From assembly GCF_028641065.1 (NCBI RefSeq), contig NC_073410.1, forward strand, positions 3,224,001-3,288,000: a stretch of 64,000 nucleotides of DNA, in the 5' to 3' direction. The number at the start of each line of letters is the position of its first letter. Position 1 is the stretch's first letter. Under the pieces are notes generated by a model, which saw nothing but the letters and a program-made list of their open reading frames with translations, was not told the DNA's origin and searched no databases. Below are positions 2,854-59,763 of this stretch, one piece after another. Made by a program: the position numbers and the translations under genes. The DNA comes from Leucoraja erinacea (taxonomy: Eukaryota).

Positions 2854-3656
2854 TAAGGGTATGTGGTTTAATGTACCACATGTCAATTGTCATTGAAGGC
2901 TATTCCACAAGATGATAATGAGTGCAGAAATGCATGGAGATGACAACTCTATAAACAGAGATGCAGGTTGTTTGATTGATTGAAAGATTCAGCATGGAAA
3001 CAGGCCCTTCGGCCCACTGGGTCCACTCCAACCATCAGTTCACAGAAGTCCTATGCTATCCCATTTTCTCATCCACTCCCTTCATAGTGGGAGGCAATTT
3101 TTACATAGGGCTAATTAACCTACAAATCAGCAGGTCTTTGGGATGTGGGAAGAAATCGGAGTACCAGAGGAAGCCCAGGTGGCAGAAAAGAACAAGCAGT
3201 GGGTGATTCACTTGGCCCATATCTCTACAGCTATCAATTAGACTCTACTATCTCCTAACATGTATGACCCTGTATTGGTTGAGTGTAGATAAAAAATGCT
3301 GGAGAAACTCAGCAGGTGAGGCAGCATCTATGGAGAAAAGGAGCAGGCGACGTTTCGGGTCGAGACCCTTCTTCAGATGGACATTTTGAGCAGTCACATT
3401 GAGCACATTGTTAATTTTTGCATAACATGCATTCTAGTTATAACACCAAAAAGATAATCGACCTTCTGAGGAAGGTGCAATTAAGTTGAATTCATATATA
3501 TAGTTTTCTGAGATCTCATTTGAATTGTTGCAAAAAAAGTCACAGGAAACAAATGCAAAACTAACCATATAGTTTGCATTGACGTAAAACGCAAAGTGGA
3601 TTTGCCTGGCGGAGTTTGTGTTGCAGAATGGTTCTGCCTGCATACTTGCTACTGAC

Positions 3657-3834
3657 CTCTCATAAGCACTTCCCTTGCCTCCGCCCACTTGGGTCGACAG
3701 TCAGATGTGAGGAGACCTAAAGGGGGTGACCTTTCGTCCTCACTCCCTGCCATCTTCACAATCCTCCTCAACTGGGTGATCAAGTCAGTTTCGGTCAATC
3801 GTCTGTACTTTATGACCACATCCAAAACAAAGAA
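3657..3834 (-). CDS. CHAT: ChAT coding exon (178 nt)
   Basis: tgccag| and |gtcagt. Reads [59 protein letters not shown]. Confidence 0.95.
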
Positions 3835-4697
3835 CTGGCACAAAACAAAGTGACGGAAGTAAACATTAATACAATCCTGCAAGGAGTTCATGCAAAATGT
3901 CGAGAAGCATGAATTATAGACCACTTTAAATGTCTTTGCATGTAACTCGTATATCGACATTCAACAAGGTCATTTCTATTATTTCGATCAGTATTTTTGT
4001 TAAATAGCAGAGACATTAGACTTTAGACTTTAGGCAAACAGCATAGAAACAGGCCCTTCGACCCATCGTGTCCATGCCGACCAGCGATCACCCATACACT
4101 AGTTCTATCCTACAGTCCAGGGACAATTTAGTGAAGTCAATTAACCCAGAAACCTGCAAGCCTTTGGAATGTGGAAGGAAACCGGAGTGCCCAGAGAAAA
4201 CCCATGCAATCACAGGGAGACTGTTCAAACTCGTACAGACTGCACCCGTAGTCAGGATTGAGCCTGGGTCTCTGGCACTGTAAGGCAGCAAATGCAAGGC
4301 AACGTCTGCAGTTCATTGCTTGTACCTTTCTCAGTTCCAATTTTTCTTCATTTATTGATTTAAAAAAAAAAATGTTATTCATCAGGAAAGATAAATTGTC
4401 CTGAATTTATCAACTTTGAGCTCATTTGTCCATTCATCTCTTCTAATTTAGTTCAGATACAACATGGAAACAGGCCTTTCAGCCCACCACATCCATGCCA
4501 ATCATTGATCACCCATTCACACTAGTTCTTTGTTCAAGTCAAGTCAACTTTATTTGTCACATACACATACAAGATGTGCAGTTTTCTCTGATTTTCTCAT
4601 CTGCTTTTCTCTTCCACACCTCTCCTACTCTGGCAAAGACCACCCCACTATTAATTTCCATCTCCTCCACATTCCCCAATGTAAACTGAATTCTCAC

Positions 4698-4878
4698 CTG
4701 GTTACGATAAGCCACGATCACTTGTTCCGTTCCAGGCATGACATTGATTTTCTGGGTTACCAGTGTGTCTTTTTGTTGGCCCGGTAGACGATAGGATGTG
4801 AAAAGCCTGTAGTACTGCTCCATGCACAAGGCATGTCCTGCTAACTGACCGCGGGCAAAATCAACAGGTAAGGCACGG
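4698..4878 (-). CDS. CHAT: ChAT coding exon (181 nt)
   Basis: ttgcag| and |gtgaga. Reads RALPVDFARGQLAGHALCMEQYYRLFTSYRLPGQQKDTLVTQKINVMPGTEQVIVAYRNQ. Confidence 0.95.
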
Positions 4879-57600: not shown

Positions 57601-58229
57601 CCCTTCCTCTCATTATTATTATTGAATCTCTTGGGATTCTCCGTCAACTTCTCTGCCAAGGCTCTCTTGCTTTGAATCAATGGATAAGAGACTGGGATAT
57701 CCACATTGTGTAGGAAGGAACTGCAGATGCTGGTTTAAACTGATGCTGGAGGAACTCAGCGGGACAGGCAGCAACTCTGGAGAGAAGGAATGGGTGACGT
57801 TTCGGGTAGAGACCCCTTTTATGAATTTCTTATGAAGAGTCTCGACCCGAATGAATTTCTTATGAAGGGTCTCTACCCGAAACGTCACCCGTTCCTTCTC
57901 TCCAGAGATGCTGCCTGTCCCGCTGACTTACTCCAGCATTTTGTGTTTATCTATGGGACATCCACATTATTGCTCACCATTCATGAGTACAACATTGGCC
58001 TGCTATTCTCAGGCCACATGTCAATCGCACGTTTGCAGAAGCAATAAGCATCTGAATGAAAATAACTAAAAAGCCCTCCTTAATCCTCCTCTATCCTTTT
58101 TTATCTCCGGATTCACTCTGCAGCTGATGAGCACTGTGGGACGGTGAACTGCGATGACAGGAGATGCTGCCGAAGCGGACTTAAGCCGGAGAGACCTCTG
58201 GATCATTCGTGTCCTGAGCAGCAAGGAGA

Positions 58230-58351
58230 ATGTCGCTTGCCGCTTGCTTGTGTTCCTGGTTGTGCTTTGGTTCCCTCGCTGTAGGGTTCTGCCTGTGTCC
58301 TCCACAGTGCACCTGCACCTTCCACAGCAGCATCAATGAACTCAAGGCAAG
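58230..58351 (+). CDS. LRIT1: LRIT1 exon 1 (signal peptide and LRRNT start)
   Basis: MSLAACLCSWLCFGSLAVGFCLCPPQCTCTFHSSINELKAR |gtatct. TAATCC at 58081 upstream. Head-to-head with RGR, as is mammalian LRIT1. Confidence 0.88.
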
Positions 58352-59763
58352 GTATCTCAGCAATTTAACACTGATCTTGGGCACAGAGAGGGTTATAACT
58401 GACCGACAACACATGCACAGTTTGCAAGTATTGTACCACAACATTTATAATGTGCAAACTGGTTCATTTTGATTGTGCTCTTAAAAAATGGTTATATTTA
58501 CTGATCCGAATGATATCAGCATACATGTGTTCAGGAGAATGGTAGATTAGAAACTTGTCCTGGATAATTTTGAAAATATTTCATAGACTGAAAATGCTGT
58601 GTCACACCTGATGTGTCAGAATGGTCTCATTCCTGTTCAGAGTATTTAATAGTTTATTTTTTTATAATACAATTCATTGAATTCTAATGTTAAGCAAAAT
58701 GGTAAACGGCAAAATAATAGTCAATTTTGGAAAGTGATATACGGTGTCTGTGTGATTGAGATTTACACTATCACAATAATACGTGGCCAAAAGCCATTTA
58801 GCTCTTGTTACTGACTTCATCCATTTATTCTTAATGATCAGTACACTTTCTATCTTATTGATTAAAAATGATGTGATCTATTCATTAAGATGCGAGTCTT
58901 TAGATTCCACTATGTATGGTACATAGTAACACTGAATACAGACCATGGGCTTGGTGACAAATTAGACCTTTGAAGGATTCTTCAGAAATGCTTAATATTC
59001 CTGGAAAGATGGGGCTACATAATATAGATGCCCAGGGGATCATTCCACTTGCCCCTTGCCTGCTCCTAAATCTGCTATCATTTCTCACCCACACACACAC
59101 ACAGTGACATTGACCCACAGGCAATTGCACAGTACTGGCGGAGATGAACCTTAAACTACATTTGCTGTCATTTCTGCTCGAAGTAGAAAAGAAGAACTGC
59201 AGATGCTGGTTTGCAAAAAAAGACACAAAGTGCAGGAGTAATTGAGTTGGTCAGGCAGCGTTGGATAGGTGATGTTTCTGGTTGGAACTTGTGTGGCACT
59301 TCATTAACTGCTCCTGTAATGTGTGGGGCTCATTGTTTGATTGTTGTGGTGACCAGTTAGGCAGTCTGAAGAAGGGTTTCGGCCCGAAACGTTGCCTATT
59401 TCCTTCGCTCCATAGATGCTGCTGCACCCGCTGAGTTTCTCCAGCCTTTTTGTGTAACCAAGGCAAATCATACACCTGGCTTCCAAGTCAGCTGTACAGA
59501 TGGAGAGATGGGGGAGGGGGGGGGGGGGGGGGGGCATGGCCAAAGCATGGCAAGTGCATCGGGGGATGGGGGGGGGGGGGAGGGGAGGGTTTATTGGCTG
59601 GTACCTTTCAAATACCTTTCAAAAGGGGTAGGTGAAATTTGGAACAATTGAATGGTTGATGAGTGATGAGAATGGTTTCACTTATTTCAGCTGACTGTCG
59701 AAATGTTTTACAGGCTGTGAAGAATTATGTACACAAACAAGAGACTTTCTTCTTACTTTTCAG

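What the first reader, a model, noticed from the sequence alone, without database searches (positions are those of the whole stretch)
3349..59393. Dense family of Penelope-derived micro-retroelements carrying a minimal hammerhead ribozyme core
Seen: CTGAAGA-A-[GGG..CCC hairpin]-GAAACGTH occurs at 3349-3376(-), 5981-6008, 7210-7237, 10188-10215, 10451-10478, 20927-20954(-), 21503-21530, 22752-22779, 26845-26872, 49922-49949(-) and 59366-59393. Many decayed copies exist, plus CTGATGA variants near 14643 and 37439. The hairpin loop varies (TTTCGG, TCTCGA, TTCCGA) while the core and the closing stem are mostly kept. The same region sits 3' of the GIY-YIG remnants at 7039 and 23763. Established: CUGANGA/GAAA/NUH is the hammerhead catalytic core, and Penelope-like elements carry minimal type I hammerheads with a tiny palindromic stem III (ACGU) thought to cleave as dimers. 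Inference: 130-170 bp copies with clean 10-15 bp duplications behave as a recently mobile, SINE-like ribozyme-bearing family. This is my best candidate for an undescribed system here. Caveats: stem I pairing is weak and there is an extra A after CUGAAGA.
Basis: partly seen in the sequence, partly recalled or inferred. Interest (0 to 1): 0.8.

Follow-up and report, generated by a model that had tools for sequence, protein, structure and literature searches.

The report
Solo Penelope end-repeats with minimal hammerheads
These short repeats are stranded copies of the end piece of a Penelope-like jumping gene, with a type of tiny self-cutting RNA motif already known from such elements, but their sharply shared starting point hints at where the element's RNA begins.

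Summary
The motif is real: all 11 sites check, with 60,407 exact genome matches against 0 for the control. It is not a separate SINE-like system. The ~140-bp unit is the pseudo-LTR of Neptune-type Penelope-like elements. Long copies start and end with it around an RT–zinc-finger–GIY-YIG ORF. Each of the six commonest solo variants also occurs behind a GIY-YIG end. The extra A, G10.1–C11.1 and the ACGU palindrome are published min-HHR features (Cervera 2014). 3' ends fall at two sites ~38 nt apart, matching the known 'tail'; target duplications have a median of 13 bp. The core decays like its flanks, the monomer is predicted to misfold, and RNA-seq shows no cut site. One less ordinary feature: solo copies start 0–4 nt before the core, at a conserved initiator-like TCAGT, not at the cleavage site. 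About 1% repeat this head (854 hits against 454 for an internal control, ~5-fold per copy). This suggests reverse transcription running off the 5' end of uncleaved RNA. The scan found the same element and the 5'-end clustering before, in other genomes. New member of a known kind.

The parts
3349..3376 (-). min-HHR core, family B pLTR copy without tail (piece about 3276-3387)
5981..6008 (+). min-HHR core behind a pyrimidine-rich 3' UTR remnant
7039..7334 (+). 5'-truncated Neptune-type PLE: GIY-YIG C-terminal codons (stop 7094-7096), pyrimidine-rich 3' UTR, pLTR with tail; core 7210-7237; 11-bp TSD at 7028-7038 and 7335-7345
8059..8245 (.). head-to-head pair of family A pLTR pieces lacking the 5' half of the core
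10184..10315 (+). solo family A pLTR beginning CAGT-CTGAAGA, with tail; core 10188-10215; 14-bp TSD at 10170-10183 and 10316-10329
10451..10478 (+). min-HHR core, body internally deleted
14642..14670 (+). decayed CTGATGA-type core, helix II poorly paired
15485..15662 (.). head-to-head family A pair joined within 3 nt of the predicted cleavage site
20927..20954 (-). min-HHR core of an older lineage copy (piece 20825-20966)
21503..21530 (+). min-HHR core with G10.2 changed to A, older lineage
22640..22844 (.). head-to-head family B unit: inverted truncated copy with tail plus direct copy (core 22752-22779), 9-bp TSD at 22631-22639 and 22845-22853
23763..24720 (-). 5'-truncated, internally deleted PLE: RT remnant, GIY-YIG, 3' UTR, pLTR without tail; core 23830-23857 with C3 changed to U
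26845..26974 (+). solo family A pLTR with tail; core 26845-26872; 13-bp TSD at 26833-26845 and 26975-26987 (one base shared with the core)
37439..37467 (+). CTGATGA-type core with 5-bp helix II closed by A10.1-U11.1; older relative
49822..49962 (-). family A pLTR with 13 nt of 3' UTR and tail; core 49922-49949; 10-bp TSD at 49812-49821 and 49963-49972
59362..59462 (+). solo family A pLTR ending at the upstream 3' site (no tail); core 59366-59393; no TSD found

Best explanation
The copies are solo pseudo-LTRs and 5'-truncated ends of several Neptune-type Penelope-like retrotransposon lineages, each carrying the known metazoan minimal type I hammerhead (this much is shown). Mechanism (inferred): the element's RNA starts at an initiator-like TCAGT 3-4 nt before the hammerhead core. 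The RT/GIY-YIG protein nicks a target and starts reverse transcription inside the RNA, at one of two sites about 100 and 138 nt downstream, as shown in vitro for Anolis Poseidon. Most events run off the RNA's 5' end after 100-140 nt and insert as a solo pLTR with a 7-17 bp duplication, often with an inverted partner. Events on tandem or read-through RNA continue into the 3' UTR and ORF. The template is uncleaved, so the ribozyme is not needed for this spread. Inserted copies are passengers that decay neutrally. The ribozyme probably cuts only as a protein-assisted dimer, in the master element's own cycle.
For: Architecture: L100, L102, L104, L116 and L232 begin with the unit followed by the ORF; L232 has it at both ends, with the tail at the 5' copy and none at the 3' copy. 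ORF pieces show RVT_1 (E 7.5e-5), GIY-YIG (E 8e-4) and a CxxxxCxxC linker. B-type units also lie behind GIY-YIG ends. All six commonest diagnostic variants have ORF-linked copies, and 75 solo A copies are as close to ORF-linked copies as to each other (median 0.979 for both). 3' ends are bimodal. TSDs flank 35 of 64 solo A copies, median 13 bp. 38 head-to-head against 3 tail-to-tail adjacencies among 187 hits in 324 kb of unselected DNA. 28 of 71 A copies start 0-4 nt before C3, against 15 spread over the upstream 110+ nt. TCAGT is kept in lineages whose 3' UTRs otherwise differ. The head is reiterated at 854 places; 36 of the 100 listed are exact 6-, 7- or 10-nt head repeats. Core and body decay alike. 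The monomer hammerhead fold costs 4.9-12.4 kcal/mol. Literature.
Against: No transcription start was seen: four RNA runs showed no place where many molecules begin or end, and almost no reads over the ORF start. An untemplated 'cap' G before AGT was not significant in the direct test (35 of 100, p=0.058). The internal control for reiteration still gave 454 hits, and the ~5-fold per-copy excess rests on a small 26:74 sample ratio. Family B solos are closer to each other (0.916) than to the few ORF-linked B copies sampled (0.874), so non-autonomous B masters are not excluded. No uninterrupted full-length ORF was seen in the long copies translated. Pfam scores for RT and GIY-YIG are below the curated cut-offs.
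Confidence: 0.75

Rival explanations
1. An independent non-autonomous, SINE-like family: short master copies are transcribed on their own and mobilised in trans by PLE proteins.
For: Solo copies far outnumber ORF-linked ones among B variants (43 solo against 4 ORF-linked for the commonest). B solos are closer to each other than to sampled ORF-linked B copies. An internal promoter in the pLTR would let solos be transcribed.
Against: Family A solos carry no private variant among the commonest classes and match ORF-linked copies at 97.9%. No tRNA, 5S or 7SL head in Rfam. Solos end at or before the tail and lack the downstream ORF-start region that the Poseidon protein needed in vitro.
Confidence: 0.15
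2. The 5'-end pile-up comes from a 3' splice site (pyrimidine tract, CAG, then TCTGAAG) or from the RT stalling at the C-rich tract, not from a transcription start.
For: A pyrimidine tract and CAG precede the core in all lineages seen, and a donor-like CAAG/GTATG lies about 30 nt past the tail. The D. virilis intron ends at helix I. The tract is much less covered in bulk oligo-dT than in single-cell reads (depth about 17 against about 500).
Against: The predicted spliced junction has 1 genome match, a B copy in unrelated flank. It is not among the 15 best-supported read joints shown (127 not shown). The main loose end in bulk RNA is a genomic insertion, not a splice. Splicing gives no free 5' end, and many solos keep AG or CAG upstream of the junction.
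Confidence: 0.2
3. A retrozyme: ribozyme cleavage and circularisation produce unit RNAs that are copied into the genome.
For: One 13-unit head-to-tail array of 177-209 bp exists (L237). One TSD-flanked copy starts exactly at the cleavage site (L138). Retrozymes derive from pLTRs.
Against: Only 3 of 13 array units have the whole core. Same-strand adjacencies are 10 among 187 hits. Starts at the cleavage site number 390 against 502 at a control site 3 nt downstream (about 1,090 against 815 after allowing for the pattern; both include palindromic junctions). Solos include the whole core, unlike a cleavage-to-cleavage monomer.
Confidence: 0.05

Closest known systems
Minimal hammerheads (min-HHR) in pLTRs of metazoan Penelope-like elements (Cervera & de la Pena 2014, PMC4209133)
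   Same: Type I core, no helix III, palindromic 15.2-16.2, extra nucleotide between 9 and 10.1, G10.1-C11.1, present in both pLTRs, mostly dispersed single copies. The Acropora digitifera Neptune motif in their supplementary alignment has nearly the same layout (4-bp helix II, 3-bp helix I).
   Different: Helix I is only 2 bp (as in D. virilis), and at least 60,407 exact copies compare with about 4,000 and 9,000 in coelacanth and Xenopus. No shark or skate term was found in supplement file 2; file 1 was not searched.
Neptune clade of endonuclease-positive PLEs (Craig et al. 2021, PMC8557442)
   Same: RT plus C-terminal GIY-YIG with a CX2-5CxxC linker, partial tandems, inverted 5'-truncated copies, optional 30-40 bp tail.
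   Different: Long N-terminal proline-rich repeat region (element about 4 kb). Solo pLTRs dominate. No RT tree was built.
Poseidon of Anolis carolinensis (Frangieh et al. 2024, PMC11167929)
   Same: Two internal RT start sites that bound the tail; uncleaved RNA as template; no RNA-seq ends at the cleavage site.
   Different: Different clade. Here the first in-frame ATG lies past the tail rather than in stem II. A 5' run-off end and head reiteration are not described in the parts read.
Non-LTR retrozymes (Cervera & de la Pena 2020, PMC7229834; Li et al. bioRxiv 10.64898/2026.07.22.740005)
   Same: Short non-coding HHR-bearing repeats related to pLTRs; the preprint reports some in one chondrichthyan genome.
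   Different: Those are head-to-tail arrays, with canonical, active ribozymes in the 2020 paper. These are dispersed solos and head-to-head pairs with minimal cores.

Membership tests
PLE min-HHR | CUGANGA / GAAA / NUH core in type I order | tested here: met
PLE min-HHR | Unpaired nucleotide between 9 and 10.1; G10.1-C11.1 pair | tested here: met
   A invariant in 61 of 61 copies; G-C in 16 of 17 distinct rows, G-U in 1
PLE min-HHR | No helix III; palindromic 15.2-16.2 | tested here: met
   A-C-G-U in all lineage consensuses
PLE min-HHR | Short helix I (2-5 bp) | tested here: inconclusive
   only 2 bp (U-G or U-A, G-C), 78.8% of cells paired
PLE min-HHR | Compensatory covariation in helices | tested here: not met
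   0 two-sided changes in 17 distinct window rows; only one-sided U-A/U-G swaps; not above shuffles
PLE min-HHR | Located in both pLTRs of a PLE | tested here: met
   L232; L100, L102, L104, L116 for the 5' copy
PLE min-HHR | Self-cleavage as a dimer | not testable with these tools
   monomer predicted to misfold; RNA-seq shows no sharp ends
Neptune-type EN+ PLE | RT followed by C-terminal GIY-YIG | tested here: met
   RVT_1 E 7.5e-5 and GIY-YIG E 8e-4, both below curated cut-offs; DKG and YIDD motifs
Neptune-type EN+ PLE | CX2-5CxxC linker between RT and EN | tested here: met
   CNRKKCNTC in many copies; definition
Neptune-type EN+ PLE | Partial tandems, inverted 5'-truncated copy, optional 30-40 bp tail, TSD | tested here: met
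Neptune-type EN+ PLE | Placement in the Neptune clade by RT phylogeny | not tested
   no reference PLE proteins were fetched
SINE | tRNA-, 5S- or 7SL-derived Pol III head | tested here: not met
   no such Rfam match in the window; the head is the pLTR start
SINE | Own non-autonomous masters with private diagnostic changes | tested here: inconclusive
   not met for family A; open for family B
Non-LTR retrozyme | Head-to-tail arrays with an HHR in each unit | tested here: not met
   10 same-strand adjacencies among 187 hits; the one array seen has the whole core in 3 of 13 units
Non-LTR retrozyme | Circular unit-length RNA | not testable with these tools
   needs RNase R or Northern data

The most novel reading that the evidence does not exclude
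Solo pLTRs are 'strong-stop'-like run-off cDNAs from a capped, uncleaved RNA that starts 3-4 nt before the hammerhead core. At the template end the telomerase-related RT realigns its last two bases on the next AG and recopies the head (7- and 10-nt repeats), a telomerase-like translocation recorded in hundreds of genomic copies. The ribozyme, sitting at the extreme 5' end with only 2-3 nt available for helix I, would be a protein-gated switch that removes the capped 31-nt leader.
Probability: 0.3. Interest if true: 0.6.

Novelty: new member of a known kind. Interest (0 to 1): 0.3.

Why it matters
The kind is known, so the finding does not open a new class. It does give a very large natural record of PLE integration: at least 60,407 exact-core copies, and by rough extrapolation about half a million pieces or 2-3% of the genome. 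That record bears on two open questions: what the PLE hammerhead is for, and how pLTRs are made. The copies argue that cleavage does not define the template's 5' end, in line with the Poseidon in vitro result. They also name a short RNA on which run-off, reiteration and protein-assisted cleavage can be tested directly.

Tried and rejected
Rfam: no hammerhead family matched. Selection on genomic cores: a first comparison gave 5/610 against 71/3355 (p=0.035), but it included positions 80-90 where copies end. Dropping those and two subfamily-diagnostic positions gave 5/610 against 32/2745 (p=0.67); CpG sites were excluded throughout. Covariation: none two-sided. Cap-G: 35 G, 37 A, 28 T in the 100 listed of 2,797 matches, p=0.058. 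A post hoc hand sort gave G in 8 of 10 copies where that base is not part of the TSD, which is a lead only. Splicing of the pLTR as an exon: not supported. Cleavage-site starts: no sharp peak. Expression: no RNA holder listed on record. A tree of solo against ORF-linked copies failed on a filter error and was replaced by variant counts and identities. The 3-5-fold strand bias in single-cell reads cannot be read, because the library direction is unknown and internal priming is likely. The CTGATGA lineage had too few copies for a consensus. Lunse et al. 2017 is not held and is known here only through a review. A sequence look-up in the scan's notes found nothing.
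Full report
Observation. All 11 listed sites carry the 28-nt motif on the stated strand, and both CTGATGA variants exist. A min-HHR descriptor gives 11 window sites against 0.005 in shuffles. A profile from 9 window copies finds 70 pieces, 10% of the window. 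The 2.19-Gb genome holds 60,407 exact matches of the core pattern and 0 of the reversed control. In 324 kb of unselected DNA the profile finds 187 pieces, 5.8% of bases. That sample is about 2.3 times denser in exact cores than the genome (21 in 324 kb), so roughly half a million pieces genome-wide is a rough inference. That the host is a cartilaginous fish is from recall and the scan's notes, not tested.

What the unit is. The window's RT/GIY-YIG remnant (23763-24720) has thousands of candidates in the genome. Walking upstream through 9, 30 and 30 loci reached the element's 5' end. L100, L102, L104 and L116 start with the same hammerhead unit, continue through a short leader and enter the ORF. 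L232 carries it at both ends in partial tandem, with the tail at the 5' copy only. [quoted passage not shown] The linker marks the Neptune type according to Craig 2021 (passages); no tree was built. Of 257 distinct cores in all loci, 75 had a GIY-YIG C-terminus within 330 nt upstream (many of these loci were chosen for the ORF, and in 2 a second core intervenes). These include B-type (TCTCGA) units with quite different 3' UTRs that end at or near TCAGT. Among 264 copies, each of the six commonest diagnostic variants has ORF-linked members. 75 solo A copies are a median 97.9% identical to an ORF-linked copy, the same as to other solos. 86 solo B copies are 87.4% against 91.6%, with few ORF-linked B copies sampled. 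So the short repeats are solo pLTRs. Independent masters are unlikely for A and open for B.

Ends. 3' ends fall at two sites about 38 nt apart. This fits the optional 30-40 bp tail and the two internal RT start sites shown for Anolis Poseidon (Frangieh 2024, parts 1-2 of 4 read). Exact TSDs of 7-17 bp, median 13, flank 35 of 64 solo A copies. Head-to-head pairs are common: 38 against 3 tail-to-tail and 10 same-strand, as described for PLEs. Of 71 A copies found by their body, in a sample partly chosen for intact cores, 28 start 0-4 nt before C3, 6 at 7-9 nt and 15 run 11 nt or more upstream. The other 22 start inside or after the core and are mostly inverted partners or indel artefacts. Starts at the cleavage site show no sharp peak (390 against 502 at a control site; about 1,090 against 815 after correction). 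One TSD-flanked copy does begin there (L138).

Head reiteration. Between the TSD and the core, several copies carry pieces of their own first bases. Genome-wide there are 854 such matches. Of the 100 listed, by hand count, 21, 7 and 8 are exact 7-, 10- and 6-nt head repeats; a few listed pairs look like segmental duplicates. In 77 of the 92 with a spacer the extra hexamer continues as the template would. The 7- and 10-nt units equal the distances from the AG before the core to the next two AGs. In 19 such loci fetched, several show TSD-like repeats outside the reiteration, judged by eye. An internal control gave 454 matches. Scaled by the 26:74 ratio of the two motifs in the unselected sample, that is about 1.1% against 0.2% per copy. 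This supports a physical template end near the A of TCAGT, but post-insertion duplication contributes. The cap-G test was not significant.

The ribozyme. The extra A, G10.1-C11.1 and palindromic ACGU are listed by Cervera & de la Pena 2014 as consistent min-HHR traits. That paper also says most motifs are dispersed singles tied to truncated PLEs, with no monomer cleavage and low dimer cleavage (main text parts 1-2 of 4, supplement file 2 part 1 of 3). Between the main lineage consensuses the differences at positions -3 to +28 are a loop base, U-G/U-A in helix II, C/U at H17 and U-G/U-A in helix I, all tolerated. One small older cluster also differs near 10.1. There is no two-sided covariation in 17 distinct window rows. 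Helix I is 2 bp. The hammerhead fold costs 4.9-12.4 kcal/mol against the best monomer fold in three copies. In three of the four CTGAAGA-type fragments folded alone, the 5' core purines pair with a downstream pyrimidine tract. In 61 copies found by their ORF end, core and body decay alike (p=0.67; an earlier contaminated comparison gave p=0.035). Inserted copies are therefore not under selection as ribozymes.

RNA. Four raw-read runs from two studies, 1-5% of each read, were laid on a natural tandem junction. They gave 12,738-18,276 reads each, peak depth about 6,300-7,900 on the pLTR and under 30 over the ORF start. In the bulk runs 93% of reads ran on into unlike sequence, and no place showed many starts or ends. 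The best-defined bulk loose end traces to a solo copy inserted antisense about 600 nt downstream of a linker-histone ORF. The signal is thus mostly copies inside host RNAs. It neither shows nor excludes cleavage or a start site in the germline.

Known or new. The kind is in print (passages only for PMC8557442, PMC3846280, PMC2377424, PMC6765202, PMC7229834, PMC6155905; parts 1-3 of 5 for the 2026 preprint). Seven literature searches found no description of this family or of head reiteration in PLEs. Repbase, Dfam and subscription papers were not searchable. The scan's notes report the same element and 5' clustering in other genomes; I tested the clustering here. Verdict: a new, very abundant member of a known kind, with one mechanistic lead. 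Interest 0.3.

Noticed in passing
window 17560-19182 (-) and 4557-4907 (-): Single-exon MFS transporter (VAChT-like, label recalled) and a choline/carnitine acyltransferase exon on the same strand, the nested cholinergic locus. In this stretch the three listed or found cores with a long pyrimidine tract (5981, 7210, 9157) and 10451 all lie antisense to the gene; too few to test.
   Followed up: partly
L235:1526-1640 (G000:C37): A solo family A copy sits antisense about 600 nt downstream of a linker-histone (H1.0-like) ORF and gives the best-defined loose end in bulk RNA-seq, so it is probably in that gene's 3' UTR.
   Followed up: partly
L237 (G000:C1:24092200-24095400): 13-unit head-to-tail array of 177-209 bp made of the pLTR body plus about 70 nt of the leader and ORF start, with variable 5' starts; 3 units have the whole hammerhead core. 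A possible incipient retrozyme or satellite.
   Followed up: partly
L100 899-1990; L102 895-1398: The reading frame of the ORF is open back through the whole pLTR to the TGA inside the hammerhead core.
   Followed up: no
L073, L100, L102, L104 N-terminal ORF region: Long Pro/Ala-rich region with imperfect short peptide repeats before the RT, variable in length between copies.
   Followed up: no
window 19855-20313, 46612-47115: A different repeat with long inverted arms recurs, possibly a DNA-transposon or MITE family.
   Followed up: no
window 59663-63116 (+): LRR and Ig-domain exons of an LRIT-like gene (label recalled).
   Followed up: no
window 1533-2138 (-), 28053-28550 (+), 32915-33367 (+): 3' ends of CR1/L2-like LINEs (labels recalled); one matches Pfam ALKBH8_N.
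   Followed up: no
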